IMG/VR virus record: IMGVR_UViG_3300044693_000272
Strand: one strand, 5' to 3'
DNA: 64,000 bases
Source of the DNA: a virus
Lineage: Duplodnaviria; Heunggongvirae; Uroviricota; Caudoviricetes
Within the stretch, counting starts at the first letter, position 1, and each line of letters opens with the position of its first letter. Of this stretch, positions 27,920-49,267 are shown piece after piece. The notes under the pieces are model-generated. The model made no database searches and was not told the DNA's origin. It worked only from the letters and a program-made list of their open reading frames with translations. A program made the translations under genes and the position numbers.

Positions 27920-28026
27920 TGGCAGGGGCACTAGGATTCGAACCTAGATCACGTCCTTGGGATGGAAGAAATGGTTGCTGAAAGGAAAGCCTTTTTACGT
28001 GTGCTGACCAATTACACCATACCCCT
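27920..28026 (-). ncRNA. tRNA-shaped RNA with CAGCAA helix module inserted in the anticodon arm
   Basis: intact acceptor/D/T arms and CCA; CGT-AAAAAGG-cttt-CCTT-TCAGCAA..CC-atcccaa-GGACG. Confidence 0.75.
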
Positions 28027-28035
28027 GTAAAACCT

Positions 28036-28365
28036 TTACTGCTTATCAGGATACTTGGAGTCAAGTTCCTCGATATAAGCAAGTGGGCTCATACCTGGTT
28101 CCAGATCATGAACCTTGCTAAAGCCGTTTTCTATCGTAATAAGTGAATCCTTAGGCTGGACAGCACCTGCATACTTTCGAAAACCAGGCTTATTCATCAG
28201 CTTACCTGTTGCTGGATCCACAGAACCCCACGCCGTCCAATCAGTTTTGCTCTGATTGTCAATCGGTTCTACAAAATACGATTTACCAGTGCGTTGCGAT
28301 ACAACGATGAATCTACCGGTTTCATCTGTATTTGTGAGAAACCGTTTGCGGAGGTCGTGGTCCAT
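28036..28365 (-). CDS. conserved hypothetical protein inside tRNA array
   Basis: TDETGRFIV.S.RTGK.YFVEPI, WGSVDPATGK, ENGF. Confidence 0.8.
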   Translation of the reverse strand: MDHDLRKRFLTNTDETGRFIVVSQRTGKSYFVEPIDNQSKTDWTAWGSVDPATGKLMNKPGFRKYAGAVQPKDSLITIENGFSKVHDLEPGMSPLAYIEELDSKYPDKQ

Positions 28366-28417
28366 ATAATTACCTTACGTTAAAAACTTGGCTGACTTAA
28401 ATGTCAGCCAAGGGTAT

Positions 28418-28536
28418 TGGTTGGGCCGCCAGGAATTGAACCTAGACTTCGTCCTTGTGCATGGATGAATTGAGTGCTGAACGGATCCTTATCAGGATCA
28501 CCTTCTTTACGCGTGCTACCGTTACACTACAGCCCA
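28418..28536 (-). ncRNA. tRNA-shaped RNA with CAGCA helix module inserted in the anticodon arm
   Basis: intact acceptor/D/T arms and CCA; CGT-AAAGAAGGT-GATCCT-gata-AGGATC-CGTTCAGCAC..CC-atgcacaa-GGACG. Confidence 0.75.
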
Positions 28537-28543
28537 ATAAACT

Positions 28544-28618
28544 TGGTGCCCCGAGAGTGAATCGAACACTCATTTCCGACATACCAAGTCGGTGTACTGA
28601 CCTTTATACTATCAGGGC
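28544..28618 (-). tRNA. trnT: tRNA-Thr(GGT)
   Basis: loop TTGGTAT, CCA. Confidence 0.93.
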
Positions 28619-28619
28619 G

Positions 28620-29051
28620 TTACTTGTTGTCCCAAGGAGTTGGTGAAGGAACAACAGCATTTTCTGGTGCATCAACTTCAATGCTACCAAAATCTGCTGG
28701 TGAACAAATTTCCAAGTACTCCATGTCAGGCGAGTAATCATACAAATAATGTACTAGCCCAGGAACTTGATGTACTACATCGCCTGCTTCAACAAGCGTT
28801 ACTTGATCGCCGTACATGAACTTGGCCCAGCCTTTGTTCATTACAACAATCTGAAAATCTAAAATATGTCGGTGCCAACCAGTACCTTCAAAAGGTGGTT
28901 TGTTAGCTTTCACCAAATGTGCAATGACTTTACCATCAGTTGCGTCCTTGATACCGAGATCCTTATACAGGAAGAAATCGCGCAGACCATCACCTTTCCA
29001 TTCAGTGTCAGCTGGCTTGATGTGTGAAAATTTCATGGGGTCTAACCTCAA
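28620..29051 (-). CDS. cupin-domain protein
   Basis: GWHRHILDFQ, GWAKF.Y, GD.VHQ.PG..H. Confidence 0.9.
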   Translation of the reverse strand: MRLDPMKFSHIKPADTEWKGDGLRDFFLYKDLGIKDATDGKVIAHLVKANKPPFEGTGWHRHILDFQIVVMNKGWAKFMYGDQVTLVEAGDVVHQVPGLVHYLYDYSPDMEYLEICSPADFGSIEVDAPENAVVPSPTPWDNK

Positions 29052-29097
29052 AAGTTGATGCTATAATTATAAGCAACTTGGTTAGAACCACAATATT

Positions 29098-29172
29098 TGG
29101 TGCGTCCTACAGGAATTGAACCTGTATCCAACTCTTAGGAGGAGCTTATTCTATCCATTGAACTAAGGACGC
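29098..29172 (-). tRNA. trnR: tRNA-Arg(CCT)
   Basis: loop CTCCTAA, CCA. Confidence 0.95.
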
Positions 29173-29178
29173 GGTATT

Positions 29179-29532
29179 TCAACTAATCACTTGTTCAAGT
29201 TTATTCCACACATCATCATACAACACATGGTGCTTGGATCCGTCTTCTAGTTCGATCGGAACTGCTTTGCTACCAAGACCAGCCATACCCACAACATCAC
29301 CAGGAATAACCATTTTCCCGGTTACTTTGATCATAGTCCGCGCGGGAATAGTTGCAATCACGTTATCCGTAACGTTGCCATCAGCATCTTTCTTGGAAGC
29401 TTGGTGATAAATCCCCACACGCACTGGAATCTCTTTCTTAGTCACCCAGACTGTGCCTTTCTTTAGCAAAGCACGAATACCACCGGCCATGATTTTCTCC
29501 ATAGGAAAATCATATGATACGATAGCATTCAT
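29179..29532 (-). CDS. hypothetical protein
   Basis: 117 aa ORF between tRNAs. Confidence 0.7.
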   Translation of the reverse strand: MNAIVSYDFPMEKIMAGGIRALLKKGTVWVTKKEIPVRVGIYHQASKKDADGNVTDNVIATIPARTMIKVTGKMVIPGDVVGMAGLGSKAVPIELEDGSKHHVLYDDVWNKLEQVIS

Positions 29533-29549
29533 TCTGCATCAAGCAAAAC

Positions 29550-29624
29550 TGGTACCCGCAGGTGGAATCGAACCACCGACCTACGGCATGTCAAGCCGTT
29601 GCGCTACCGCTACGCTATACGGGT
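29550..29624 (-). tRNA. trnV: tRNA-Val(GAC)
   Basis: loop TTGACAT, CCA. Confidence 0.95.
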
Positions 29625-29632
29625 ATTGAAAC

Positions 29633-29706
29633 TGGTGCCCCATGGCGGAATTGAACCACCATCACCTGACTACGAAACAGGTATTCTACCATTAAACTAA
29701 TGGGGC
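29633..29706 (-). tRNA. trnT: tRNA-Thr(CGT)
   Basis: loop TTCGTAG, CCA. Confidence 0.92.
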
Positions 29707-29714
29707 ATAAAACT

Positions 29715-29788
29715 TGGCGTGCCGTACGGGAGTCAAACCCGTCTTCTCACCGTGAAAGGGTGATGTCCTATCGATAGACGAACGACAC
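29715..29788 (-). tRNA. trnE: tRNA-Glu(TTC)
   Basis: loop CTTTCAC, CCA. Confidence 0.93.
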
Positions 29789-29796
29789 ATGAATTC

Positions 29797-29870
29797 TGGA
29801 GCCCTAAGTGAGAATCGAACTCACATTTCCGGAGTACAAAACCGGTGTTCTACCATTAAACTAAAAGGGC
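29797..29870 (-). tRNA. trnT: tRNA-Thr(TGT)
   Basis: loop TTTGTAC, CCA. Confidence 0.92.
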
Positions 29871-29872
29871 GA

Positions 29873-29948
29873 TGGCGTCGGTACGGAGAATCGAACTCGC
29901 GATCCGCGGATTGAAGGTCCGCTATTCTAACCATTAAACTATACCGAC
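29873..29948 (-). tRNA. trnE: tRNA-Glu(TTC), C33
   Basis: stem GCGGA/TCCGC, loop CCTTCAA, G73-CCA. Confidence 0.8.
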
Positions 29949-29953
29949 AAAAC

Positions 29954-30071
29954 TGGTTGATATTTTAAGTGCTATCCAATTACACCACAGAGGGGCTCAT
30001 CTCCTCCGCCAGGGTTCGAACCTGGACCTTTCATTTCTCAGATGATTAAAATAAATTTGCTGAAATCAACC
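29954..30071 (-). ncRNA. YrlA-like circularly permuted tRNA-mimic RNA
   Basis: GGTTGAT-TTCAGCAA..T arm (CCAGGTTCGAACCCTGG)..closed acceptor..D arm..AAAAT-ATCAACC. Confidence 0.75.
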
Positions 30072-30083
30072 TACGAGCACAAC

Positions 30084-30173
30084 TGGCAGTGGGAAGGAGA
30101 TTCGAACTCCTGGGGCCATTCCAGACCCTCCCGGCTTCCAACCAGGCGCCTTAAACCGCTCAGCCATCCCACT
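30084..30173 (-). tRNA. trnS: tRNA-Ser(GGA)
   Basis: loop TTGGAAG, long variable arm, G73-CCA. Confidence 0.95.
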
Positions 30174-30211
30174 ATATTCTTTTCAAATCGCCAAGCCACG
30201 AAGAAAGGCGA

Positions 30212-30358
30212 TTACGAGTGTACAGCGAAACCCTCTTCACGCGTCAAGACACTAGTCTCAGGTGAGACTTCAAGTGTGGACATATGCTCAGGGAGAGCCA
30301 GAGCGAGCGTATGCTGCGGTAATGCGGTAACATGCGCGAATGTCAGCGTCGTAAGCAT
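30212..30358 (-). CDS. small ORF (48 aa, MLTTLTFAHV...), possible leader peptide
   Basis: strong SD AAGGAGAG; not in ORF track. Confidence 0.45.
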   Translation of the reverse strand: MLTTLTFAHVTALPQHTLALALPEHMSTLEVSPETSVLTREEGFAVHS

Positions 30359-30387
30359 AATGCTCTCCTTGAGAAAATGGTTAAAAG

Positions 30388-30570
30388 TTATTCTTCGTTG
30401 AGGTATTCAACGAGGGTTTCACGACTGATTTCACCAGCTATGAATTGATTTTTCAACTCATTGAACTTGCGTGCTCGATCAGCTTGGTTGTATGTAACAC
30501 CATATTCAGCTGATACTTTAGCTTGCTTATCCACGCACTGATGAATCAGGTTTACTATGTCTTGTCTCAT
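30388..30570 (-). CDS. hypothetical protein
   Basis: SD GGAGG before MRQD. Confidence 0.65.
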   Translation of the reverse strand: MRQDIVNLIHQCVDKQAKVSAEYGVTYNQADRARKFNELKNQFIAGEISRETLVEYLNEE

Positions 30571-30713
30571 ATGGCCTCCAATATTAGCCATATGATATAT
30601 TCATTGTCACTGTGAATCAATACCTGCTATTGTTCATCTGCTCTCAAACGAACAGAAGCGCATTACATAGATTCTTCACAGGCGGTCGTAATATCCGTGC
30701 CTGGCATTGCAAT

Positions 30714-30805
30714 TGGCGGTAGGGGTGGGATTTGAACCCACGGAGCTTTTTAGGACTCGCCAGTTTTCGAGGCTGGAGCAATAAACCGGACTCTGCCACC
30801 CTACC
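30714..30805 (-). tRNA. trnS: tRNA-Ser(CGA)
   Basis: loop CTCGAAA, long variable arm, CCA. Confidence 0.95.
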
Positions 30806-31098
30806 ATAAACTTCATATACTTGAATGGTGTGCTGTTACGCCAAAAGGTGCTCATGCAGACTAAAACCCAACTCCTAGTATGGAATGCACGTTGGATCTC
30901 CGCTGTTGCAAAACGCTTGCCACGGTACTCAAAGCAACCATCCCCTCGTCTCTCACTATACTGCTGTGAGTTCGTTTGAGGTGGAAATTAGGTTTCTGGG
31001 GCAAGTACCCTAATTTTACTGCTCTCCCACGTCCAACGCCCTACTCTTTAAATGATGGGTGCTACTATCCCTACATCCCGTATCAAGTTATACGAAAC

Positions 31099-31199
31099 TG
31101 GAGCCGAGTCACGGAATCGAACCGCAGCGGGTTGGACCTGGGTCACCAGAAGACCAACTCTTATTGATTCGTACCAGCAGCCTACTGGACTCTCTCGGC
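31099..31199 (-). ncRNA. atypical tRNA-like RNA (101 nt) without a pairable anticodon stem
   Basis: acceptor GCCGAG/CTCGGC-T-CCA, T arm GCGGTTCGATTCCGT, long GTTGG..CCAAC stem. Confidence 0.6.
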
Positions 31200-31200
31200 A

Positions 31201-31413
31201 TTAAAACGTTGGATTGGGCGTGTTGCTTTGATCGTCACGCTCACGAATATGAGACATGAACATACAACCTTCAACGCCACAACCACAAATAACATGAAAC
31301 GTGCGACGAATCTCGTCTGCTTCTTTCACTTCTCCACGCTTCAAACGAGAATTGAAAACTTCCTCTTCATAGCGTGCTGCTGCCATATCAACTTGTGTTA
31401 AACGTCTTCCCAT
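31201..31413 (-). CDS. hypothetical protein
   Basis: 70 aa ORF, C.CG..GC motif. Confidence 0.65.
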   Translation of the reverse strand: MGRRLTQVDMAAARYEEEVFNSRLKRGEVKEADEIRRTFHVICGCGVEGCMFMSHIRERDDQSNTPNPTF

Positions 31414-31432
31414 TTTGGGTCTCGATTATATC

Positions 31433-31526
31433 TGGCAGAGAGTATGGGATTCGAACCCATGCGGCAGTTTATCACCACCCTAACGTCTTAGCAGGACGCC
31501 CCCTTGAACCTCTTGGGTAACTCTCT
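31433..31526 (-). tRNA. trnS: tRNA-Ser(GCT)
   Basis: loop CTGCTAA, long variable arm, CCA. Confidence 0.95.
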
Positions 31527-31536
31527 ATGGTAAAGC

Positions 31537-31614
31537 TGGAGCCCAGGGCTGGATTCGAACCAGCGGTTTGACTGCTTTGCAGGCAGTTGCCTTGGACCTC
31601 TCGGCCACCTGGGC
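31537..31614 (-). tRNA. trnC: tRNA-Cys(GCA)
   Basis: loop CTGCAAA, U73-CCA. Confidence 0.95.
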
Positions 31615-31623
31615 ATTGAAACT

Positions 31624-31920: not shown

Positions 31921-32001
31921 GTTCTCTTCTAGAAGATGAGGCATCGTTCCCTTTTTGTTTCGTGTGTAATAACGAATAGTTGCTTCGCTTTAAACGTAAA
32001 T

Positions 32002-32228
32002 TGGTGGATCGGACGGGAATTGAACCCGCGTAGTTTCCGCTTACCTGGGCATTACTCCAGGCCCACACATAACTTGGAAACGCGCTTCCCTTGCTGTTTA
32101 GATGCCACCTCTTTCGAGGCCGCTATAGGTGCTTCTGCAACCGTGCGTTATGTGTGACTTGCGAATGGAACCCGTTTTACCGGATCTCCTTTCATTTTAG
32201 GAGTGCTTTTCCTCTCAGCCACCGACCC
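32002..32228 (-). ncRNA. 227-nt tRNA-like RNA with Ala identity (G3.U70, A73) and large structured insert
   Basis: GGGTCGG/CCGATCC-A-CCA, D arm, GCGGGTTCAATTCCCGT T arm, 10-bp CACACATAAC/GTTATGTGTG, GAAA-capped helix followed by AACAGCAA. Confidence 0.75.
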
Positions 32229-32271
32229 ATAACCATATGATTACGTCATTTGCAGCATCAGTCAAGACAAA

Positions 32272-33237: not shown

Positions 33238-33300
33238 TGGATAGCTTTTTAACGAGTCAAATTAACGGTTTGATGTTTTTAAGTTTGCTGCAACTATCCA
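33238..33300 (-). ncRNA. minimal Y-RNA-like stem element
   Basis: TGGATAG-TTGCAGCAAA..AAAAAG-CTATCCA. Confidence 0.65.
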
Positions 33301-33308: not shown

Positions 33309-33359
33309 TGGAAGCACATGGTCATGTTGGAAAATGAATGTGATTGCTGTAGGCTTCCA
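33309..33359 (-). ncRNA. minimal Y-RNA-like stem element
   Basis: TGGAAGC-CTACAGCAAT..ATGT-GCTTCCA. Confidence 0.65.
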
Positions 33360-33380
33360 AAAACTGGGTCTAAAATGAAT

Positions 33381-33473
33381 GTGTTTTGCTCCGCGTGTGA
33401 GGATCGAACTCACCTAGCCACTGATTAACAGTCAGGCCCATGCACCAAGCTCGGGTTTCGCGGAGCAAAACAC
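33381..33473 (-). tRNA. trnN: tRNA-Asn(GTT) with 15-bp extended acceptor stem, no CCA
   Basis: loop CTGTTAA; GTGTTTTGCTCCGCG/CGCGGAGCAAAACAC perfect inverted repeat. Confidence 0.8.
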
Positions 33474-33520
33474 ACTCTAAATCATATAGCTCTACCGCTG
33501 AGCTACATCGGAACAGAAAC

Positions 33521-34054
33521 TTATGCTACAAGCCCTAGAGCCTGCAAACCAGCCTCATGGTTAGCTTGCGTTGCTGCCAGTGCTACTGGACTAGACAATT
33601 CGCTAAAAGCGCGCTCATGCCATTCTTCGTCCTTCAAAATACGTTCAAACACACTACGAATATCAGCAGGTGCTTGCTCATCAGCTGCGATAACACGGAT
33701 CCGTTCAAGTCGCATACCTTCAGCATGCGCTGCTACTGCTGATCCGGTTTCGAAATCTGTGATACCATGCAACGTTTCTTTCCAATAACGTTGCTCTGCT
33801 TGATCAATCTGACCTGCATCAACTTCAATACCACGCGAGAGGAGCAATTGCTCAACCCATTCAGCATGCTGGCGTTCTTGTGCTGCAATCGCATTCAACA
33901 CCTTTACTTGATGTTGATCGCTTGCATATTGCTCTGCAAACCGTACAATGCGATTTGAGGCTGTTACTTCACCACGCCATTGCTTCAGCAACCAATCTTT
34001 TAAAAGTGTTTCATCTGCTTTAACTGCTTGCCACCATGTTTCAGAAGTTTTCAT
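33521..34054 (-). CDS. ferritin-like (di-iron four-helix) protein
   Basis: W.GE..A, QE.QH, HAE.MRL, DEEWH (two ExxH motifs). Confidence 0.85.
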   Translation of the reverse strand: MKTSETWWQAVKADETLLKDWLLKQWRGEVTASNRIVRFAEQYASDQHQVKVLNAIAAQERQHAEWVEQLLLSRGIEVDAGQIDQAEQRYWKETLHGITDFETGSAVAAHAEGMRLERIRVIAADEQAPADIRSVFERILKDEEWHERAFSELSSPVALAATQANHEAGLQALGLVA

Positions 34055-36872: not shown

Positions 36873-36984
36873 AGGATGTACATAAATGGCTCCGGAGGCT
36901 GGGATCGAACCAGCGACCCGCGCATTAACAGTGCGCTGCACTACCGCTGTGCTACTCCGGAATTGATGATGCTGTAAACATCCT
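36873..36984 (-). ncRNA. Y-RNA-like stem enclosing an intact tRNA-Asn
   Basis: AGGATGT-TTACAGCAT..[tRNA]..TTTATGT-ACATCCT. Confidence 0.7.
36887..36961 (-). tRNA. trnN: tRNA-Asn(GTT)
   Basis: loop CTGTTAA, G73-CCA. Confidence 0.95.
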
Positions 36985-37049: not shown

Positions 37050-37100
37050 TGGATGCACTTTCGTTTTCACCAAGAAAATTTAAGTTGCTATAGGCATCCA
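37050..37100 (-). ncRNA. minimal Y-RNA-like stem element
   Basis: TGGATGC-CTATAGCAAC..AAAGT-GCATCCA. Confidence 0.65.
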
Positions 37101-38877: not shown

Positions 38878-38885
38878 GTAAAACT

Positions 38886-38973
38886 TGGTGAAGAGTGAAG
38901 GAATCGAACCTAATAACCAACCACCTGTCTATCAGGGTAACGGGTTTACAATCCGCTGACAGGAACACTCTCC
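38886..38973 (-). ncRNA. D-armless tRNA-Tyr(GTA)-like RNA
   Basis: GGAGAGTG/CACTCTTC-A-CCA, loop TTGTAAA, variable arm, no D hairpin. Confidence 0.6.
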
Positions 38974-38991
38974 ATTGAAACTTTATCGCAA

Positions 38992-39141
38992 TTTGCTTTG
39001 CTCATCTGGGTGGATTCGAATCCACCATTTTATCCGAACATTAGGCGCCATTCTTGATCATATCGGCCCGATCAAGTGTGGCTGTTCACTTCTGCACATT
39101 GTCGGCCGTGACTCAAACGCAATTCAGATGATTAAAGCAAA
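38992..39141 (-). ncRNA. 150-nt RNA with tRNA T arm stacked on a ~15-bp terminal stem, no CCA
   Basis: TTTGCTTT-aa-TCATCTG / CAGATGA-gc-AAAGCAAA; GGTGGATTCGAATCCACC. Confidence 0.6.
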
Positions 39142-39152
39142 CTACTGAATTA

Positions 39153-41588: not shown

Positions 41589-43463
41589 TCACTTTGCTAG
41601 AAACTGTTTCCAGCGCTCCGTAAATGGAAACGAAGGTTGCTGTTTTTCAAGTTTAATGAACGGTTGGGATTCAGCGATAAATTCATCTTGACTGAGTGAA
41701 TTCCGTTCAATCAACACATTTGTAATATGTTTGTAATAGTCGAGGTGCTCACCGATCAAGGCCTTAGCACGAACATATTGTTGTTGAATCAAATCTTTCA
41801 CTGCTGGATCAGTTTCTTCGATCATCGTCAACCAATTGATCGTGGGTGATGCACTAGTTTCGATCAGCCCAACAACGTCAGTAAAGCCATAACGTCGCAC
41901 ATAGAAACTAGCACCTTCAGTTGCTTTAGCAATATCAGATTGCGCACCAGTAGTAGTATTTTCAATACCGAATACGATTTCTTCAGCAGCCCGTCCACTC
42001 AACAAAATGCAGAGATCATTTCGCAATCCCTCACGCGTCACTGCTTCGTTGTCTGGTGGAGGCAGCATGTAACCACCATTGAAGGAATTAATATTAACCT
42101 TCACTTCAAAAGGTGATGTCTTGTTCAACAATGCAAATGTGATCGCGTGCCCTGCTTCGTGTGCCGCAACCAACGTCTTATAATCAACCGATGTTTTCTT
42201 CTTGCGTTCGTTCATTTCGAACTCAACTGCAAACTTGGCTGTTTGCCCATCTGCTGTTGCATTAACAAAAGCTAAGCCATCATTGATCGTTAGCTTCACG
42301 TCTTTGTGGTCATTTTCAATGGCCCAAAACGTAACGTTGACGAGCAGATTACTGAAGATCTTATGAATCGAAGAAAAGACTGGTCGTGTTCCTTGTGTTG
42401 GGAAAACTGAATTGTCGTAAATTTGATCGAGTATTGACTGGTCGATGTCAAACTTGATATCTGATACCGCAGTCATCTCATCAGTGTAACGCTTGCACGT
42501 TGCTGCGATAAGCTTCTGGTATGACACTTTGCTCATCGAGGGATAGATGATGTGGTTATTGCCCATGCGAGCAATTTGCTCTGGGCGGAAGCGACGCAAC
42601 AGATTTGCCTTGATCTTGTTGGTTGAAATATTCTTCGTGATTTCGTGGTAGAAGTCAGCATCAGTGTCTGAATCGTCCGTACTGGTTGCACCAGCAAATG
42701 CAGTGTCAAGATTGCCAGAGATGAAGATGATCAACTTCGTATAATCAATTTCCCATGACTTGCGTGTTGCTTGAACTTTATGATATGCAGCTACCACATC
42801 TTTTGAATCCCACGACATGATCTCGGAAACTGAATTCGGCAAACGCAAAAGCTTCTTGATGTTGTTTGCTTCCCACATGTAGATCTTGTGCTTCTTGGAT
42901 TTTGCTTCACCTTCTGCCACAACTTCGCTTTCTTCATCATCGTCGTTCATGCGACTGGCCATCATCATTTCAATCTCATTGAATACTGATGAATCGGATG
43001 AGAATTTACCATCACTCAACAACGTCCATACGTCTTGATAACGTTCAACCTTCATGTCACCGCCGTTATCATCAACTGTACGGAAACGTTGAATCTCATC
43101 AAGCAACAAAATGCCTGGCTTACCTTCTTCAATTTTTGATTGCGACAAAATCGAAGAAAGTGAGTTACTAAAATAACTACCATGAGATGAACTACCATCC
43201 ATAACCACTTCAACAAAGCGGTCACTAAAATCGAGCAGGGAAACAATGCGACGCACGAGTTGCGTCTTGCCAACACCAGTCATACCCCAAAGGTTAACTA
43301 TGACTGGACGTGTAATAAGTTCAGGGAAAATATACCAGGCCGACATTGAATCAATCACCTTGTCGATGATTGAGTCGAGACCAAAGAATTCTGTTTTGAG
43401 CTGCTTTTTTACTTTTTCAAGTTCGACTCGCTTGGAGTCGATGACTGATTTGTCAAGTGCCAT
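41589..43463 (-). CDS. soluble AAA+ ATPase fused to M41 (FtsH-type) zinc peptidase
   Basis: GMTGVGKT, LLLDEIQ, RFRPEQIAR, GTRP, AAHEAGHA, GRAAEE, GA.SDI..AT; no TM segment. Confidence 0.9.
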   Translation of the reverse strand: MALDKSVIDSKRVELEKVKKQLKTEFFGLDSIIDKVIDSMSAWYIFPELITRPVIVNLWGMTGVGKTQLVRRIVSLLDFSDRFVEVVMDGSSSHGSYFSNSLSSILSQSKIEEGKPGILLLDEIQRFRTVDDNGGDMKVERYQDVWTLLSDGKFSSDSSVFNEIEMMMASRMNDDDEESEVVAEGEAKSKKHKIYMWEANNIKKLLRLPNSVSEIMSWDSKDVVAAYHKVQATRKSWEIDYTKLIIFISGNLDTAFAGATSTDDSDTDADFYHEITKNISTNKIKANLLRRFRPEQIARMGNNHIIYPSMSKVSYQKLIAATCKRYTDEMTAVSDIKFDIDQSILDQIYDNSVFPTQGTRPVFSSIHKIFSNLLVNVTFWAIENDHKDVKLTINDGLAFVNATADGQTAKFAVEFEMNERKKKTSVDYKTLVAAHEAGHAITFALLNKTSPFEVKVNINSFNGGYMLPPPDNEAVTREGLRNDLCILLSGRAAEEIVFGIENTTTGAQSDIAKATEGASFYVRRYGFTDVVGLIETSASPTINWLTMIEETDPAVKDLIQQQYVRAKALIGEHLDYYKHITNVLIERNSLSQDEFIAESQPFIKLEKQQPSFPFTERWKQFLAK

Positions 43464-44414: not shown

Positions 44415-44427
44415 AAAACTTGATCAG

Positions 44428-44564: not shown

Positions 44565-44848
44565 GGATGGATTGTGCATGCAGTTTTTTGTTTATCGTTT
44601 GGTCTACATAGCAAGCTGCCTTATCCTTCACGTACTGACAAAAATTTCATAATGCCAGCGGAAGACCTTATCAACAAGCGTACACCCACCAAACTATCAC
44701 GTATTCTACGTGCCTATCTCGCGCATTTCGTCTACGAGCCCAACGCCACATATTCGCTATGGACACTATCCGTTACATCAGCTTTCACCTAAAAGGTGAA
44801 AGCATTCAACGGCTTTCTATATTAGAAAGTTTATTGCTGTACCCATCC
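44565..44848 (-). ncRNA. long (284 nt) Y-RNA-like element L1
   Basis: GGATGG-GTACAGCAAT..CAAT-CCATCC ends; core shared with L2. Confidence 0.65.
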
Positions 44849-44888: not shown

Positions 44889-45087
44889 AGGATTGTGGTC
44901 TCCCTACTATCGATTCAAGGCCAGGATCTTCCTTGGTCGATCTCGTTTCTACGAGCACTATTCCATATTCTATGGACACTATCTTCATCGCACTCCACAC
45001 ACGACCTTTCGGTCTTAGCATTTAAGCCAGCACATGGATCATGAAGCAACGCCGGATTAAGTAATTTTGGCTTGCTGTAACAATCCT
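44889..45087 (-). ncRNA. long (199 nt) Y-RNA-like element L2
   Basis: AGGATTGT-TACAGCAAG..ACAATCCT ends; core shared with L1. Confidence 0.65.
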
Positions 45088-45231
45088 AAAACATCTATTC
45101 TAACAGAGTTACCAAACAAGTCAACAACTTTGTTAAAATTTTCTACACATTGACGACGTAGATAACTTCAATCAATCACGAAGGTTTATTAACCGTATGC
45201 CATTTTACGCCTTCCATAGAGAAATGCAATA

Positions 45232-45690: not shown

Positions 45691-45692
45691 AA

Positions 45693-45881
45693 TTAATTCA
45701 AAAATGTGAGTTTGAATTGAACGGCGAGAATTGAATCTTCAATCTGAATGTGGACGTTGTGTGAAATGACGCCAATCCATGTTCGTTGCATAGTACAGTC
45801 ATACAATTTCCATCCATATCCTTCAATGCGATGGATATCATTTATTTTCTCAACATGAAACCAATTCGTGAATTGAGTCAC
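45693..45881 (-). CDS. hypothetical protein, C-terminal FKL-motif family
   Basis: ends IEDSILAVQFKLTFLN. Confidence 0.7.
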   Translation of the reverse strand: MTQFTNWFHVEKINDIHRIEGYGWKLYDCTMQRTWIGVISHNVHIQIEDSILAVQFKLTFLN

Positions 45882-46103
45882 TTCGGCGGCTAACAGACAC
45901 TAGCTACTAACGTTTTTATCAGCTCTATTGGCGCGCATTTTGCACTGTTTATCACCTACATGGCCAATCAACCATGTGAGTATTTCACGAACTACCTCCG
46001 GGTTGTGTATGGCTTGTTTAATGTGTATCAGGTGCATCAGAATACCCTATATAGGGAACGAAGGCCACTTACTACAGTAGCCTTCGTTGTCACTACCAAC
46101 TGC

Positions 46104-46889
46104 TTACAGCTTGATTTCGTGCGAACCAAATGCAACGTGTGATACGAGATCGATGAACTTACGCGAAACAAAGATCACCTTATCTACGATCACCGTCAGG
46201 AAGCGTGAAAACAGGATTGAGAGAATTGTGATCGGCCATTCGAAAACCGCGCTTGCGAGAATAGCCTTACCGCGTAATGTCTTCGGCGGAAAAAGCTCCG
46301 CCATCTTCTTGGCAATAGTATCTTCAACACTTAAGATCGATTGTTCGTGCTTTAGTGAATAAAGATCAAACATCGTATTCACTTTATACGAACGGCCAAA
46401 GATATGATCCTTGTTATTGGCAGCAATGTCTAATTGAAGCACACGACGAATAAAATCATCTGTTACCGTTAGAGGATCAATTGGCGTAGGACGACCATCA
46501 TTCAAATTCTTGATAACAGCGTTTGCGTATTTTTGAAAAGCATCTGAATCCGTCAAATACGGCAATATCATATTGCGGTATCGTGTCTTCACATGCATAC
46601 AGAACAAAATCCAATTCACAAACGACACACCGACACCAATAGCAAGATACAATGCAATCGGCTCCATAATGGCATGGATAAGTGAAGTGGAATGGAAGTA
46701 CGCGATGAGTGGCTGATGGTAAACATAACCAATCGCCACAAAACAAAGCAGCATCGTAAAGAACGACAATCCAAATGCATCTTCTGCGTAGACACTGATC
46801 GAAAGAACAATGAACACAAAAGCTACGGCAAGTGCGATCCATTCGAAGAGTGAAAAGGCAATCGCACTAGCAAATAGGGCTTCGAACAA
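46104..46889 (-). CDS. membrane protein
   Basis: three N-terminal hydrophobic helices. Confidence 0.75.
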   Translation of the reverse strand: MFEALFASAIAFSLFEWIALAVAFVFIVLSISVYAEDAFGLSFFTMLLCFVAIGYVYHQPLIAYFHSTSLIHAIMEPIALYLAIGVGVSFVNWILFCMHVKTRYRNMILPYLTDSDAFQKYANAVIKNLNDGRPTPIDPLTVTDDFIRRVLQLDIAANNKDHIFGRSYKVNTMFDLYSLKHEQSILSVEDTIAKKMAELFPPKTLRGKAILASAVFEWPITILSILFSRFLTVIVDKVIFVSRKFIDLVSHVAFGSHEIKL

Positions 46890-47115
46890 GGTGTTCTCCT
46901 AAAGTTGTTTTTAAAGAATGAAACAACTAAGAGTGTGTATTGGCGCGCCATTTCAGTCAAGCTGACTTAACCACTTCACCAGTCCAAACACCAGATGGCT
47001 AGGCGCCCCAAACAATCTTTCGATCATTCGGGGCGCTTTCGCCAGGTAAACAACTTTCAGGAGGAAAGTGTTAAGTCATATACTACGACTATTCGTCTAA
47101 GCAGTCAAGAACTTT

Positions 47116-47943
47116 TTAGAACAAGGTAAGTGCTGTACCACATTCGCTGCAAAATTTAGCAGTCGCTTGGTTCGTTCTACCACATGTTGTGCAGACGGGC
47201 TTTGCTTTCACTGTAACAGGAGCTTCAACTTTCTTGCCCTCTGGGCTTTCACCCAACAGCTTCAGCGTAATCACGTGCTTAGTTGATTCAACTTGAAAAC
47301 CATATGATGTCTGGAACGTTTGTTCGCTCTTAGCACCAGGAACAGTAATACCAACATCGTTTTGAACTGAAGCTTGTGCTGAATAGGCAGCAGTAGGTGC
47401 TTCAGTTGAATTTGATGTCAACGTAGTGGCGGTTGCTGCCGAAGAAGCCATCGATACATTATTCACCGCGCTACGAAGAACTGAATTATTCAACGTTGCG
47501 TGATTGCTGGTTGTGGTCCAGGTAGGTTGCCCATACAGAGTTGGTTGTATTGAAGACCCAGTATACCAAGTATTGATATTGTTCCAATTATATACTGCTT
47601 CGAACTGATATTCGACACGGATGAATCCATCATCTACCTTGGAACCACGATGCTTCTCAATGTTTGCTGTACGTTCAATGAACTTGAACTTGTTACCTTC
47701 CTTTAAATTGCCGTTTCGAATGAAACGTTCAAGCTCGATCTCACTATTCGCATTGACGATAAGTGACACACCTTCTGTTGCATCAGTACCGTCGATTGAT
47801 ACTCGAACCATAGCACGACGAGTGTCCAAGTTCTTGATCAAGATTGAATATTCAGATCCGAATGGAATGTAGGTTGCGTCCTTGAACTCACGGAGAACCT
47901 TATTGTTGGCTTTGATGGCCACGACTAGATTTTCTTTGAACAT
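47116..47943 (-). CDS. conserved phage protein with C-terminal zinc ribbon
   Basis: LREF....YIPFGSEYSILIKN, LERF; CTTCG..N...AKFCSECG. Confidence 0.85.
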   Translation of the reverse strand: MFKENLVVAIKANNKVLREFKDATYIPFGSEYSILIKNLDTRRAMVRVSIDGTDATEGVSLIVNANSEIELERFIRNGNLKEGNKFKFIERTANIEKHRGSKVDDGFIRVEYQFEAVYNWNNINTWYTGSSIQPTLYGQPTWTTTSNHATLNNSVLRSAVNNVSMASSAATATTLTSNSTEAPTAAYSAQASVQNDVGITVPGAKSEQTFQTSYGFQVESTKHVITLKLLGESPEGKKVEAPVTVKAKPVCTTCGRTNQATAKFCSECGTALTLF

Positions 47944-48156
47944 TTTGATGTCCTTAATACTGACGACAGCATAGGCGTCATTTGTTTATAATGCTGTGGT
48001 TTGAGCATTGCGCTCAGATGATGACTTTACATAATTGGATTATGCCAGTCAATATTATTTATCGAATAATGATTCAAACTTAGAATGGATTAAACATCCA
48101 TCGGACTACAATGCCAGTCCAAAGCATAAAGATGGTATAAAGACTCATTTGATTTC

Positions 48157-48630
48157 TCACATTTCACTAATGTAATCAAGCAAAACATCAAGGCTTTCAT
48201 ATGTACGAACGCCATAACGATTGCAAACAATATCAACATTACCCTTTCGCCAATATCCTTCTGGGCAACAGACATGCAACTTACCAGGATTACTTGCTGC
48301 GATAATACCAAGTTCAAGTAATGTGATTGGTGACTTCGTACCAGGCGCAAAATACATTACCACAATATCAGACGAATTGATGTGATCAAGTTCCCAATTT
48401 ACTTGGGAATTGAATTCTGGACTGTCGATTTCCTGTGTCCACGAAGCATCCCAGTCTGATCGCCGTGGGTTGTAGATCACGCTTGCATTGACCATCAAAC
48501 GATCGATAGCAATTTGCTGCCAGTCATCGCTGTTGCCCATTTCTATGGTACCAGCAAGAAAGATGGAGGGTTGCTCAAGATGAGCAGGCTTCTTAAAGAA
48601 GCAGGGTGGATATTTTACTAACGCAGTCAT
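48157..48630 (-). CDS. nucleoside 2-deoxyribosyltransferase-like protein
   Basis: IFLAGTIEMG...DWQ, NPRR, QVNWEL, SPITLLELG, YWRKGNV. Confidence 0.9.
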   Translation of the reverse strand: MTALVKYPPCFFKKPAHLEQPSIFLAGTIEMGNSDDWQQIAIDRLMVNASVIYNPRRSDWDASWTQEIDSPEFNSQVNWELDHINSSDIVVMYFAPGTKSPITLLELGIIAASNPGKLHVCCPEGYWRKGNVDIVCNRYGVRTYESLDVLLDYISEM

Positions 48631-48738
48631 GTTGTTATTTATTTTTCGACTGTAGAACGACTAAGGGCCCCGTTGCCGGGGCCCGTCGCCGATGGTAAAC
48701 AACTACAGGAGGAACTACATGGTTAATTCAAAAACAAC

Positions 48739-48874
48739 AGGATCCTATTTTCACATTGTCTAGCGCGTCTACCAATTTCGCCATAATCCACTTTTAAGGG
48801 TGGATCAGAAGGACTCGAACCTTCACGTCTTGCGACACCAGATTCCTTAGCCTATAGATTGCTGTAAGGATCCT
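48739..48874 (-). ncRNA. YrlA-like circularly permuted tRNA-Leu mimic
   Basis: AGGATCCT-TACAGCAAT, Leu 3' half (variable and T arm), TAAAA linker, Leu 5' half (GTGGATTATGGCGAAATTGGTAGACGCGCTAGAC), AAAAT-AGGATCCT. Confidence 0.8.
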
Positions 48875-48883
48875 AAAACTAAC

Positions 48884-48935
48884 TGGATGCACCTTTGGTC
48901 ACATAGCAAGTGTAGGTAATTGCTGTAGGCATCCA
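48884..48935 (-). ncRNA. minimal Y-RNA-like stem element
   Basis: TGGATGC-CTACAGCAAT..AAAGGT-GCATCCA. Confidence 0.65.
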
Positions 48936-49154
48936 AAACCTTAAATTCTTCCAATATTCAGATTTAGCGCATAGCAATACTGGCAACTTTTGCGCTAAGT
49001 CTAAGCTTGTTGAGCGCTGAAACACTAGGTCTTTTAACTCTCACTCGTCACTAGCTTCAAACATCTAGTGCAGACCTAACTACCTTAACTCTAGTCTACT
49101 GCTATGGCAACCTTACGTCAAGCACTTTATTGCCACTTCTTGAAACTTTTAAAC

Positions 49155-49267
49155 AGGATGAACTTTTAAGTCGGGCGCCTTACCACTTGGCGACTAGGTC
49201 TTTCAACCTAGGTAGAGAATCGAACTCTACGCTTGCCCGATTGACCAGTAATTGCTGAACTCATCCT
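49155..49267 (-). ncRNA. YrlA-like circularly permuted tRNA mimic
   Basis: AGGATGA-GTTCAGCAAT..TCGGG..GTAGAGTTCGATTCTCTAC-CTAGG-loop-CCTAG-D arm-CCCGA..AAAAGT-TCATCCT. Confidence 0.8.

What the first reader, a model, noticed from the sequence alone, without database searches (positions are those of the whole stretch)
27920..49267. A family of at least 12 Y-RNA-like ncRNAs built from one CAGCAA helix module in five topologies
Seen: ten non-coding elements (29954, 33238, 33309, 36873, 37050, 44565, 44889, 48739, 48884, 49155) have ends forming a 6-8 bp helix, typically (T/A)GGATG.../...CATCC(A/T). A 5' strand N(T/A)CAGCAA follows the helix (TAGCAA and CAGCAT variants occur once each), and an A-rich or ..GT strand lies opposite. 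What the helix encloses varies: about 30 nt of AU-rich loop, a permuted tRNA, a complete tRNA, or 190-270 nt. Two or three CCA-ended tRNA-like genes (27920, 28418, probably 32002) carry the same module closed by a loop. Established: bacterial and phage YrlA Y RNAs join a Ro60/Rsr (TROVE)-binding terminal helix to a tRNA-mimic domain with a loop-closed acceptor stem, and Rsr is often linked to RtcB RNA repair. Inference: this is a modular RNA toolkit in which one protein-binding handle is grafted onto different cargo RNAs, possibly to scaffold RNA repair/decay or act as decoys against anticodon nucleases. No TROVE gene is visible in this window.
Basis: partly seen in the sequence, partly recalled or inferred. 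Interest (0 to 1): 0.92.

Follow-up and report, generated by a model that had tools for sequence, protein, structure and literature searches.

The report
Phage Y-like RNAs with CAGCAA handle
Twelve small RNA genes scattered through this giant phage's 49-tRNA cluster share one stem-plus-CAGCAA "handle" joined to different tRNA look-alike bodies, and in related phages and bacteria that handle travels with a ring-shaped Ro60-like protein, so they are most likely that protein's partner RNAs: a widespread RNA-protein particle that is in neither Rfam nor the papers I could search.

Summary
All ten helix-ended elements exist at the stated coordinates, all on the minus (transcribed) strand. Each has a 7-bp terminal helix (W-GGAT-NN / NN-ATCC-W), then N-T-W-CAGCAA on the 5' strand, with an A-rich strand opposite. 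Two CCA-ended tRNA-like genes (28418, 27920) carry the same module closed by a loop. The third candidate (32002) is not a member.

The family is not confined to this window. A covariance model finds over 200 copies in uncultivated phages and bacterial MAGs, with strong helix covariation. A syntenic 524-kb relative (G001) has orthologues with compensatory changes.

They are not YrlA: there is no GNCGAA motif, no Rfam hit, and no TROVE gene in G001. The handle is instead tightly linked to DUF2828 genes. It lies on the gene's strand in 82 of 82 model hits and often sits in the 5' leader. DUF2828 was present in 5 of 5 complete motif-bearing genomes and 0 of 5 controls. An AlphaFold model of that protein matches Ro60 over its full length.

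The DUF2828 gene is not in this window; in G001 it lies about 100 kb from the array. Binding and function are untested.

This scan met the same family before on other DNA, and I re-tested its claims here. Verdict: a new variant of the Ro60/Y-RNA kind.

The parts
29954..30072 (-). E1: handle (AGGTTGA / TCAACC, TTCAGCAA) enclosing a complete circularly permuted tRNA. Order: anticodon-like hairpin with loop CTGAGAA, T arm, loop-capped acceptor, D arm.
   Evidence: ARAGORN reads tRNA-Leu(gag), 74-78 nt, across the junction after the handle is removed. The orthologue at G001 L131:290-409 has a different, compensated helix.
33238..33300 (-). E3: short element. Handle TGGATAG / CTATCCA, TTGCAGCAA, inner 5-bp hairpin with 7-nt loop CCGTTAA.
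   Evidence: R1 46.9 bits, E 4.9e-9. The G001 orthologue L130:19163-19223 has two compensatory pairs in the handle and one in the inner stem, with an identical loop.
33309..33359 (-). E2: short element. Handle TGGAAGC / GCTTCCA, CTACAGCAA.
   Evidence: R1 37.9 bits, E 7.6e-7. The G001 orthologue L130:19105-19154 has its closing pair flipped from T:A to A:T.
36873..36984 (-). E5: handle (AGGATGT / ACATCCT, TTACAGCAT variant) wrapped around a complete tRNA-Asn(GTT) at 36887-36961.
   Evidence: The handle is not present around the G001 tRNA-Asn, so this topology may be a recent chimera.
37050..37100 (-). E4: short element. Handle TGGATGC / GCATCCA, CTATAGCAA variant.
   Evidence: R1 42.8 bits, E 4.9e-8. 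G001 orthologue at L130:17090-17143.
44565..44848 (-). E7: handle (GGATGG / CCATCC, GTACAGCAA) enclosing about 255 nt of structured RNA. It shares a GATAGTGTCCATAG block with E6.
   Evidence: It is 83% identical to G001 L130:12593-12885, with a near-invariant core, above the 66-75% of flanking DNA.
44889..45087 (-). E6: handle (AGGATTG / CAATCCT, TTACAGCAA) enclosing about 170 nt. It is the first RNA of a unit running promoter, E6, E7, tRNA-Thr, terminator.
   Evidence: A sigma-70-like promoter (TTGACT, 16 nt, TG-TAGAAT) lies at 45124-45097, ending 10 nt before the helix. E6 is 78% identical to G001 L130:12380-12578.
48739..48874 (-). E9: handle (AGGATCC / GGATCCT, TTACAGCAA) enclosing a permuted tRNA-like body. 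Order: variable-arm hairpin with GCAA loop, T arm, capped acceptor, Leu/Tyr-type D arm.
   Evidence: G001 orthologue at L130:6546-6676.
48884..48935 (-). E8: short element. Handle TGGATGC / GCATCCA, CTACAGCAA.
   Evidence: R1 41.7 bits, E 8.9e-8. G001 orthologue at L130:6448-6502.
49155..49267 (-). E10: handle (AGGATGA / TCATCCT, GTTCAGCAA) whose internal loop leads into a 5-bp anticodon-stem equivalent. That stem carries the T arm, capped acceptor and D arm, which is the YrlA-type architecture.
   Evidence: MFE fold -37.9 kcal/mol, z -3.14, 0 of 200 shuffles as good. The G001 orthologue L130:6105-6235 has a compensatory A:T to G:C change at helix pair 7.
28418..28536 (-). CCA-ended tRNA-like gene in which the anticodon arm is replaced by a loop-closed handle (GATCC-TGATAA-GGATC, then CGTT-CAGCAC), followed by a variable-arm hairpin and T arm.
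   Evidence: It is 75% identical to G001 L131:3519-3628.
27920..28027 (-). Second CCA-ended tRNA-like gene with a degenerate loop-closed handle (AAAGG-CTTT-CCTTT directly before CAGCAA).
   Evidence: Rfam tRNA model 43.9 bits over 27923-28026, with a long insert. G001 L131:3517-3635 has the intact form CTTTCC-TGACAA-GGAAAC-GTT-CAGCAA, and the window copy lacks 13 nt of it.

Best explanation
These twelve genes encode Y-RNA-like small RNAs. They are the partner RNAs of a phage-encoded, Ro60-shaped RNA-binding protein of the DUF2828/DUF7788 family.

The shared handle is the protein's docking site. It consists of the 7-bp terminal helix and the internal loop formed by N-U-W-CAGCAA and an A-rich strand. 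The variable cargo presents tRNA-like surfaces on the particle: an anticodon-like hairpin, a whole permuted tRNA with a capped acceptor end, a tRNA body with a free CCA end, or a larger structured RNA.

By analogy with Ro60/Y-RNA particles, the cargo would tether or occupy tRNA-handling enzymes. These could be host exonucleases such as PNPase, end-healing and ligation enzymes, or host anticodon nucleases. The purpose would be to protect or repair the tRNA pool during infection.

What is shown: the RNA family, its structure, and its genomic coupling to a Ro60-fold protein. What is inferred: direct binding, the presence of the gene in this phage (seen only in its relative), and the tRNA-surveillance, repair or decoy role.
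For: (1) The structure is real. Across 120 distinct copies, 98.4% of helix cells are paired. There are 145 double-change cells against 26.7 in shuffles, and controls with the pairing partner shifted by 1-3 columns pair at 46% or less. Window and G001 orthologues differ by compensatory pairs.

(2) Coupling in the RNA-to-protein direction. Of 119 viral loci fetched only by an 18-nt RNA pattern, 44 encode a DUF2828 homologue within about 10 kb. By comparison, only 710 of 50,697 cultured-phage records hold the protein anywhere.

(3) Coupling in the protein-to-RNA direction. In 80 viral loci fetched only by the protein, R1 gives 49 hits at E<1e-3. All 49 are on the gene's strand, and about half end 10-90 nt before the start codon. 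In 48 bacterial or archaeal genome contigs, whose proteins are 31-54% identical to the query, there are 33 hits at E<0.01. All 33 are on the gene's strand and most lie less than 400 nt upstream.

(4) Whole genomes. DUF2828 is in 5 of 5 large motif-bearing phage genomes, four of them complete, including the syntenic relative G001. It is in 0 of 5 contigs that held only a chance pattern match, and those contigs also have no R1 hit. The short elements R1 detects lie only in the tRNA array in G001 and directly beside the gene in G003 and G005; I did not map the context of the G002 and G004 hits, which lie 7-57 kb from the gene.

(5) The protein. The AlphaFold model has pLDDT 89 and pTM 0.88. The top 13 PDB hits are all Ro60/TROVE, with TM up to 0.66 and E down to 6e-10 over the full length. 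The top 6 Swiss-Prot hits are five Ro60 proteins and telomerase p80. The MIDAS motif D-x-S-G-S is invariant.

(6) Architecture. E1, E9 and E10 have the YrlA order described in PMC4201824 section 6.

(7) Neighbours of the gene in phages include AAA_33 kinases, metallophosphoesterases and DSP phosphatases, which are families known from RNA end-healing systems. Rnl2-type RNA ligase is in 5 of 5 genomes.

(8) Precedent. The TROVE Ro60 of Thermus phage phiLo binds two phage Y-like RNAs encoded upstream of its gene and recruits host PNPase (PMC12135203).
Against: - No DUF2828 gene lies in this window (tblastn), and the window's own genome is not held. Its presence is inferred from G001, where the gene sits about 100 kb from the array with no handle beside it.
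- Binding has not been tested.
- The viral loci sampled are related to one another, so the counts are not independent events.
- Part of the co-occurrence could reflect shared ancestry of tRNA-rich phages.
- Pfam TROVE does not match, and a profile search against PDB sequences is only marginal (E 0.06).
- Neighbouring end-healing-type enzymes and RNA ligases are common in large phages anyway.
- No expression data could be obtained.
Confidence: 0.7

Rival explanations
1. The module is a processing or stability device of polycistronic tRNA-array transcripts. It would be an acceptor-stem-like 7-bp clamp that directs RNase P, RNase E or 3' trimming and protects the excised pieces, with no dedicated protein partner. 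On this reading its link to DUF2828 is only shared phylogeny.
For: The elements sit among tRNAs on the transcribed strand. They are flanked by the same spacer as the tRNAs, AGTTTT before and GTT(N)TTT after. The helix is 7 bp long, like an acceptor stem. In G001 and this window the protein gene is far away.
Against: In many viral and bacterial loci the handle lies directly before or after the DUF2828 gene; I did not check systematically whether those sites lie outside tRNA arrays. It lies on the gene's strand in 82 of 82 hits. A processing signal does not explain an invariant CAGCAA plus A-rich internal loop. It also does not explain the loop-closed copies inside tRNA-like genes, where the helix end is not a terminus.
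Confidence: 0.12
2. They are true members of the YrlA / TROVE-Ro60 Y-RNA family, and a canonical Ro60 (Rsr) of the phage or host binds them.
For: The module order in E1, E9 and E10 is the same as in YrlA. Phage Y RNAs next to TROVE genes are known (PMC4201824, PMC12135203).
Against: The defining 5' motif GNCGAAN0-1G is absent and is replaced by CAGCAA. There is no Y_RNA or YrlA hit even at E<=5-10. No TROVE gene is found in the complete relative G001. The linked gene is DUF2828.
Confidence: 0.05
3. They are working adaptor RNAs. On this reading they are minimal or permuted tRNAs that are cut at the handle, circularised or ligated by phage RNA ligase, and re-opened to give decoding tRNAs, as with permuted tRNA genes of red algae.
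For: E1 contains every tRNA arm, and ARAGORN reads it as tRNA-Leu(gag) after re-permutation. About half of the short copies carry a 7-nt loop with the C32-U33...A37-A38 signature. Rnl2-type ligases are present in relatives.
Against: The acceptor stems are capped by short loops, with no discriminator or CCA context. E9 and E10 have no defined anticodon loop. The short copies lack D and T arms altogether. Two cargos are 170-255 nt of non-tRNA RNA. The array already supplies 49 ordinary tRNAs. No splicing-endonuclease-type bulge-helix-bulge is evident.
Confidence: 0.05
4. They are selfish or regulatory DNA-level repeats. On this reading they are miniature inverted-repeat elements, or merely copies of an autoregulatory operator of the DUF2828 mRNA.
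For: They have 7-bp terminal inverted repeats, many dispersed copies, and a copy in the gene's 5' leader in many genomes.
Against: Orientation is strictly strand-specific. The conserved motif is on one arm only. Compensatory rather than identical repeat arms are seen between copies and between orthologues. Cargo is tRNA-like and conserved. In this clade the copies lie about 100 kb from the gene.
Confidence: 0.03

Closest known systems
Bacterial and phage Ro60 (Rsr, TROVE) with YrlA-type Y RNAs (Chen et al. 2014, PMC4201824; Thermus phage phiLo Ro60 with Yrl1/Yrl2, PMC12135203)
   Same: - The 5' and 3' ends form a stem with a conserved single-stranded motif on its 5' strand.
- In E1, E9 and E10 the interior runs V hairpin, T arm, loop-capped acceptor, D arm, as in YrlA.
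- The RNAs are encoded next to the gene of a ring-shaped HEAT-repeat plus vWA/MIDAS protein.
- The partner's predicted fold matches Ro60 (TM about 0.65).
- Several different RNAs serve one protein.
   Different: - The handle motif is N-U-W-CAGCAA, not GNCGAA(N)G or CGAA.
- No Rfam Y_RNA or YrlA match.
- The protein is Pfam DUF2828+DUF7788, not TROVE.
- Cargo diversity is far larger (hairpin only, whole permuted tRNA, CCA-ended tRNA body with a loop-closed handle, 170-255 nt RNAs).
- There are many copies per genome, interleaved with tRNA genes.
- RtcB is usually absent (1 of 5 genomes).
Class I RNAs of Dictyostelia (Rfam RF01414; Kjellin et al. 2021, PMC7919456)
   Same: - About 60 nt long.
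[quoted passage not shown]
- A conserved motif of about 11 nt lies directly after the 5' stem strand. The paper's near-invariant C6, C9, A10 and A11 fall exactly on C11, C14, A15 and A16 of the phage handle. Its T3 falls on the commonest base at position 8.
- The RNA starts A-G and ends C-U-G-U, with the G:C pair closing the stem, just as AGG...CCU-GU does here.
- The interior is variable.
   Different: - The Rfam model does not match the phage copies, even at E<=10 on 65-141-nt targets.
- Class I RNAs are eukaryotic and reported as absent outside Dictyostelia.
- Their known binder is an RRM protein (Rnp1A).
- No tRNA-like cargo is reported for them.
- I could not test whether Dictyostelium has a DUF2828 protein.
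- The full motif sequence is in a figure that I could not read.
ROT/TROVE RNA-repair modules of jumbo phages (Iyer et al. 2021, PMC7824862, section 3.4.9)
   Same: A Ro-type RNA-binding protein in large, tRNA-rich phages, discussed there as a platform for RNA repair together with a tRNA-like partner RNA, RNA ligases and end-healing enzymes.
   Different: That survey reports the protein in only 'a small subset' of jumbo phages. It does not describe the partner RNAs, the CAGCAA handle or their spread through tRNA arrays. Here the protein family is found in 710 cultured-phage records.

Membership tests
YrlA / bacterial Y RNA (Rfam RF02553; Chen et al. 2014) | Conserved 5' motif GNCGAAN0-1G (the Rsr contact, resembling vertebrate GGUCCGA) | tested here: not met
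   All copies carry N-T-W-CAGCAA instead. C11, A12, G13, C14 and A15 are invariant in the motif-selected set of 229 copies, where the search pattern itself fixed A12-A15. The motif definition is from PMC4201824 section 6.
YrlA / bacterial Y RNA (Rfam RF02553; Chen et al. 2014) | Match to the Rfam covariance model | tested here: not met
   No Y_RNA or YrlA hit at gathering score, at E<=5 over 27-52 kb, or at E<=10 on single elements.
YrlA / bacterial Y RNA (Rfam RF02553; Chen et al. 2014) | tRNA-like domain in the order stem, V, T arm, capped acceptor-like stem, D arm, stem | tested here: met
   E1, E9 and E10 fold this way. ARAGORN calls a tRNA across the junction after re-permutation. This does not hold for the four short copies, E5, E6 or E7.
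YrlA / bacterial Y RNA (Rfam RF02553; Chen et al. 2014) | Encoded next to, and bound by, a TROVE-domain Ro60 orthologue | tested here: not met
   No TROVE (PF05731) in the complete relative G001. No Ro-like gene in the window. The linked gene family is DUF2828. Binding is not testable with these tools.
Ro60/TROVE protein superfamily (for the partner protein, DUF2828 of G001) | Ring of HEAT-like helical repeats followed by a vWA domain with a MIDAS motif | tested here: met
   AlphaFold pLDDT 89.4, pTM 0.88. Foldseek's top 13 PDB hits are all Ro60/TROVE over about 500-570 columns. The Swiss-Prot top 6 are Ro60 and telomerase p80. D272-x-S274-G-S276 is invariant in 32 sequences.
Ro60/TROVE protein superfamily (for the partner protein, DUF2828 of G001) | Sequence-level match to the Pfam TROVE model or to solved Ro60 sequences | tested here: inconclusive
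   Pfam gives DUF7788 (1e-44) and DUF2828 (4e-28), not TROVE. The profile against PDB sequences gives TROVE proteins as best hits, but only at E 0.06 over 45 residues. One ESM Atlas cluster mixes TROVE, DUF7788 and DUF2828 annotations.
Dictyostelid Class I RNAs (Rfam RF01414) | About 60 nt; a covarying 6-bp stem joining the ends; an 11-nt motif after the 5' stem with T3, C6, C9, A10 and A11 conserved; ends AAG... and ...CUGU | tested here: met
   The features are taken from the paper's text. The short phage copies are 50-63 nt, with a 7-bp covarying stem, C/C/A/A at the same spacing, a 5' A-G and a 3' C-U-G-U. This is a feature-by-feature resemblance only.
Dictyostelid Class I RNAs (Rfam RF01414) | Match to the Rfam covariance model | tested here: not met
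   No RF01414 hit at E<=10 on 141-nt and 65-nt targets holding three short copies.
CAGCAA-handle RNAs linked to DUF2828 (the family defined in this scan; not in Rfam) | 7-bp covarying terminal or loop-closed helix, three bases, C-A-G-C-A-A, A-rich opposite strand; same strand as neighbouring genes | tested here: met
   Ten open and two loop-closed copies in the window. Model R1 recovers 126 + 49 + 33 further copies elsewhere.
CAGCAA-handle RNAs linked to DUF2828 (the family defined in this scan; not in Rfam) | A DUF2828 gene in the same genome | not testable with these tools
   The window's whole genome is not held and is not in IMG/VR. The syntenic relative G001 has the gene at 281.2-282.4 kb.

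The most novel reading that the evidence does not exclude
The CAGCAA handle and the DUF2828 ring protein form an ancient ribonucleoprotein, sister to Ro60/Y RNA, that spans phages, bacteria, archaea and eukaryotes. On this reading the unexplained Class I RNAs of Dictyostelium are its eukaryotic members.

In tRNA-rich phages the particle would be loaded with a whole wardrobe of tRNA mimics: anticodon-loop hairpins, capped permuted tRNAs, and CCA-ended bodies. These would soak up host anticodon nucleases or hand damaged tRNAs to end-healing enzymes and ligases. That would make it a counter-defence organised by RNA mimicry.
Probability: 0.25. Interest if true: 0.92.

Novelty: new variant of a known kind. 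Interest (0 to 1): 0.82.

Why it matters
Ro60/Y-RNA particles are known from animals and a modest set of bacteria and phages, and what their tRNA-like RNAs do is still open.

This system appears to be a second, much more widespread branch of that kind:
- It has a different protein family (DUF2828/DUF7788), which has no described function. RefSeq labels some members 'RNA-binding protein'.
- It has a different RNA handle.
- It has a strikingly modular set of tRNA-mimic cargos.
- The protein is in 710 cultured-phage records, including Escherichia, Salmonella, Listeria, Staphylococcus and Mycobacterium phages, so it is directly testable at the bench.

It would explain many 'odd tRNAs' and unannotated gaps in phage tRNA clusters. 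It would add a player to the tRNA-centred arms race between phages and hosts. It might also give the first functional lead for Dictyostelium Class I RNAs.

This window is a particularly rich instance. It holds twelve copies and five connectivities, including the two circular permutations of one design: open at the handle with a capped acceptor, or open at the acceptor with a capped handle.

Tried and rejected
- Rfam at gathering and at permissive E-values found only tRNAs, so no known RNA family applies.
- Megablast and blastn of window DNA and of a conserved tandem RNA pair against cultured phages found no match. The query used wrong coordinates and was repeated correctly.
- Locating the window's own genome failed. 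No genome is held. An exact 33-mer is absent from IMG/VR. The only contig found by protein identity is a 17-kb Logan contig with no DNA available.
- I thought E7 might be homologous to the roughly 226-nt RNA class that sits directly upstream of DUF2828 in at least 14 other phage contigs. By eye some blocks align, but nhmmer gives no hit beyond the handle. I do not claim this.
- A TROVE gene in the relative: absent.
- RtcB linkage: present in only 1 of 5 genomes.
- G001's DUF2828 neighbourhood is uninformative: FG-GAP repeats and unknown proteins, with no handle RNA.
- The 32002 RNA as a family member: rejected.
- Extra pairing of position 8 with the 3' strand: mutual information is low (0.2 bits), so it is not claimed.
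- Organism names for AlphaFold DB cluster hits were masked, so the Dictyostelium protein question stayed open.
- One scan script used a regular expression shifted by one base and printed nothing. It was corrected.

Full report
**Context.** The window looks like part of a very large phage genome. It has 49 tRNA genes, all on the minus strand, interleaved with small ORFs. No Rfam family other than tRNA reaches threshold. It has no near match among cultured phages. It is syntenic, at 66-75% nucleotide identity, with a complete 523,836-bp IMG/VR phage genome with terminal repeats, here called G001.

**The observation.** I read the minus strand at each coordinate. All ten elements have the same ends. 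First comes a 7-bp helix, W-G-G-A/T-T-N-N pairing with N-N-A-T/A-C-C-W. The 5' strand then continues N-T-W-C-A-G-C-A-A, and an A-rich (or ..GT) stretch precedes the 3' helix strand. The pattern GGATNNNNWCAGCAA occurs five times against 0.06 expected. The two variants (TAGCAA, CAGCAT) are as stated.

The flanks are also stereotyped: AGTTTT before and GTT(N)TTT after. The same spacer follows the CCA of the neighbouring tRNAs. From my own knowledge this resembles the RNase E consensus, so the elements are probably excised like the tRNAs. I did not test that.

**What the helix encloses.**
- E2, E3, E4 and E8 are 51-63 nt long and hold one hairpin.
- E1, E9 and E10 hold a T arm, a loop-capped acceptor stem and a D arm in permuted order. 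I removed the handle, joined the ends and let ARAGORN re-open the circle. It then called a tRNA across the junction in all three and in their G001 orthologues. E1 reads consistently as a 74-78-nt tRNA-Leu(gag), so it is a complete permuted tRNA. E9 and E10 have no fixed anticodon, so there the handle stands where the anticodon loop would be.
- E5 wraps an ordinary tRNA-Asn. The G001 tRNA-Asn has no handle, so this topology may be a recent accident.
- E6 (199 nt) and E7 (284 nt) are paralogous larger RNAs that share an exact 14-mer. They lie behind a strong promoter-like site that ends 10 nt before E6, and are followed by tRNA-Thr and a terminator. They are 78% and 83% identical to their G001 counterparts, with near-invariant cores.

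**The loop-closed copies.**
- 28418-28536 is a CCA-ended tRNA-like gene. Its anticodon arm is replaced by GATCC-TGATAA-GGATC followed by CGTT-CAGCAC.
- 27920-28027 matches the Rfam tRNA model at 43.9 bits with a long insert. Its G001 orthologue has an intact loop-closed handle, and the window copy has lost 13 nt of it.

In both genes the connectivity is the same as in E1: D arm, A-rich strand, helix, CAGCAA, hairpin, T arm. The two designs are therefore circular permutations of each other. One is open at the handle with a capped acceptor. The other is open at the acceptor with a capped handle.

The 32002 RNA is different. Its CAGCAA lies in a multiloop with no GGAT-type helix, and I found no orthologue in the G001 stretch I fetched. 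I exclude it. The count is twelve.

**The family beyond the window.** A closure scan found 240 elements, 229 of them distinct, with a matching 3' strand. Nearly all lie in tRNA arrays, and those arrays again gave only tRNA hits in Rfam.

I built a covariance model, R1, from 79 short copies. It found 126 copies in 79 sources. On that alignment the seven pairs are 98.4% paired. There are 145 double-change cells against 26.7 in shuffles, and controls with the pairing partner shifted by 1-3 columns pair at 46% or less. That alignment is fitted to the model, so it leans towards the structure.

There is independent support. The closing pair, which my scan did not require, is A:T, T:A or G:C in 207 of 229 copies. 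Orthologous window and G001 copies also differ by compensatory pairs:
- E10: helix pair 7 changes from A:T to G:C.
- E2: pair 1 changes from T:A to A:T.
- E3: pairs 6 and 7 both change.
- E1: three helix pairs change.

About half of the short copies (39 of 84) have a 7-nt loop with the anticodon-loop signature: C32 in 29, U33 in 35, A37 in 33 and A38 in 32 of those 39. They carry varied 'anticodons'. In this window only E3 comes close to that.

**Not YrlA.** Chen et al. define YrlA by a 5' GNCGAAN0-1G motif, a tRNA-like domain and a neighbouring TROVE gene. The domain order is met by E1, E9 and E10. The motif is not met, and no Y_RNA or YrlA model matches at any threshold I could set. G001 has no TROVE gene.

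**The partner.** Earlier notes of this scan named DUF2828 as a travelling companion of a 'CAGCAA handle'. I treated that as a lead and tested it four ways.

1. *RNA to protein.* Of the 119 loci fetched only by the RNA pattern, 44 encode a DUF2828 homologue within the locus, usually directly downstream of handle elements. For scale, only 710 of 50,697 cultured-phage records hold the protein at all.

2. *Protein to RNA.* In 80 viral loci fetched only by a DUF2828 alignment, R1 gives 49 hits at E<1e-3. All are on the gene's strand. About half end 10-90 nt before the start codon, and others lie just past the stop. In 48 loci from bacterial and archaeal genome assemblies, many of them MAGs that may include prophages, the proteins are only 31-54% identical to the query. 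There R1 gives 33 hits at E<0.01, all on the gene's strand and mostly within 400 nt upstream.

3. *Whole genomes.* DUF2828 is present in 5 of 5 large motif-bearing phage genomes, including G001. It is absent from 5 of 5 contigs that held only a chance pattern match, and those also lack R1 hits. Among the five genomes, the short elements R1 detects lie only in the tRNA array in G001 and directly beside the gene in G003 and G005; I did not map the context of the G002 and G004 hits, which lie 7-57 kb from the gene.

4. *The fold.* The AlphaFold model of the G001 protein (pLDDT 89, pTM 0.88) matches Ro60 structures over its full length. The top 13 PDB hits are all Ro60/TROVE, including Xenopus Ro, Deinococcus Rsr and the Thermus phage phiLo Ro60. 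The top six Swiss-Prot hits are Ro60 proteins and telomerase p80. An invariant D-x-S-G-S MIDAS motif sits in the C-terminal vWA domain. At sequence level, Pfam sees DUF7788 and DUF2828 rather than TROVE.

**What is missing for this window.** No DUF2828 gene lies in the 64 kb, and I could not reach the rest of the genome. In G001 the gene lies at 281 kb, about 100 kb from the array, with no handle beside it and uninformative neighbours. In this clade the RNAs would therefore act in trans.

**How it most likely works.** This part is inferred, by analogy with Ro60. Ro60 docks on the stem and 5'-strand motif of Y RNAs, while the rest of the Y RNA gates the ring or tethers an effector. Examples are PNPase in Deinococcus and Salmonella, and host PNPase recruited by phage phiLo Ro60 with its two Y-like RNAs (PMC12135203).

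On that model the DUF2828 ring binds the handle, and the cargo presents tRNA-like surfaces. A handle copy in the gene's own leader suggests feedback control.

The gene's neighbours in other phages include AAA_33 kinases (15 loci), metallophosphoesterases (24 and 7 loci) and DSP phosphatases (17 loci). These are families known from RNA end-healing systems. Rnl2-type ligase is in all five genomes, while RtcB is in one. These facts fit a role in tRNA surveillance or repair, or in decoying tRNA-targeting nucleases. But such genes are common in large phages, and the sampled loci are related to each other, so I give the specific role no more than about one chance in three.

**Comparison with Dictyostelium Class I RNAs.** The published description gives these features:
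- 42-65 nt long;
- a covarying 6-bp stem joining the ends;
- an 11-nt motif after the 5' stem with T3, C6, C9, A10 and A11 nearly invariant;
- a start of AAG and an end of CUGU, with the G:C pair closing the stem.

The short phage copies fit this position for position. The Rfam model RF01414 nevertheless does not match them. I could not test whether Dictyostelium has a DUF2828 protein. This is a resemblance worth testing, not membership.

**Novelty.** DUF2828 appears in the papers I could search only in passing, in plant and tardigrade studies. The jumbo-phage survey of Iyer et al. mentions a ROT/TROVE protein with a tRNA-like partner in 'a small subset' of jumbo phages, without describing the RNAs. 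No Rfam family covers them.

The same family was noted several times earlier in this scan on other DNA. This report re-derives the coupling independently and adds several points:
- the trans arrangement, about 100 kb from the gene in the closest relative;
- the permutation relationship between the two tRNA-like designs;
- the orthologue comparison with G001;
- a small negative control.

A canonical copy next to the gene in a cultured phage, Cronobacter phage S13, shows that bench tests are feasible.

Noticed in passing
window 32002-32240 (-), promoter-like site 32265-32237: A promoter-driven RNA of about 230 nt. It has a tRNA-like acceptor, D arm and T arm, ends in CCACCA, and carries an insert of about 150 nt closed by a 10-bp long-range helix (z -3.67). 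Rfam tmRNA matches only weakly (18.3 bits) and ARAGORN calls nothing. It may be a tmRNA-like or insert-bearing tRNA-like RNA. It is not a handle RNA.
   Followed up: partly
window 33380-33520 (-): An odd tRNA-like element. Rfam tRNA scores 22.5 bits at 33389-33464, with a GTT loop. Its acceptor helix is extended outward by a further 8-9 bp and is preceded by a lone D-arm-like hairpin. Part of it is 84% identical to G001 L130:16688-16751.
   Followed up: partly
window 49281-49663 (-), promoter-like site 49691-49663: A non-coding transcript of about 380 nt behind a TTGACT-17-TAGAAT site. Its last 75 nt (49281-49355) look like a tRNA with a T arm and a CCACCA end, yet neither ARAGORN nor Rfam calls it. 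Only short blocks are conserved in G001. E10 follows 13 nt later.
   Followed up: no
window 48940-49093 (-), promoter-like site 49121-49093: Another promoter-like site followed by about 150 nt of non-coding sequence that leads directly into E8 and E9. Its content is unexplained.
   Followed up: no
window 38880-39150 (-): A non-coding stretch inside the tRNA array that is 86% identical to G001 over 176 nt (L130:16140-16311), above the local average. It is probably another structured RNA. Rfam gives only a weak tRNA-Sec-like hit at 38889-38974.
   Followed up: no
window 33521-34054 (-): A 177-aa rubrerythrin/ferritin-like protein with a weak MiaE (tRNA hydroxylase) match, sitting in the middle of the tRNA array. 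It is a possible tRNA-modifying enzyme.
   Followed up: no
window 1289-1858, 5696-7210, 41589-43463, 51456-51686, 59627-61462 (all -): Unusual cargo genes for a phage: an AlkB-type 2OG-Fe(II) oxygenase, an M17 leucyl aminopeptidase, an FtsH-like AAA+/M41 protease, a 76-aa eIF-1A-fold protein (per the precomputed Pfam listing), and a 611-aa protein with a YadA-like membrane anchor.
   Followed up: no
L261 (Cronobacter phage S13, NC_028773.1) 7890-8010 and 8020-8132: Two over-long annotated 'tRNAs', tRNA-Ser of 121 nt and tRNA-OTHER of 113 nt. They lie just downstream of the DUF2828 gene and just upstream of a canonical handle RNA (8148-8282). They are probably mis-annotated tRNA-mimic RNAs of this family.
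   Followed up: partly
IMG/VR loci such as L066:2460-2858(-), L051:3000-3392, L038:4123-4517(-): A conserved tandem pair of larger handle RNAs, of about 160 nt and about 226 nt, followed by a low-GC short handle. All sit directly upstream of the DUF2828 start codon in at least 13 contigs. Their internal structure is unknown, and nhmmer found no homology to E6 or E7.
   Followed up: partly
ESM Atlas, structure row 4: One protein cluster has members annotated variously as TROVE (47%), DUF7788 (43%) and DUF2828 (38%). This suggests a sequence-level bridge between the TROVE and DUF2828 families.
   Followed up: no
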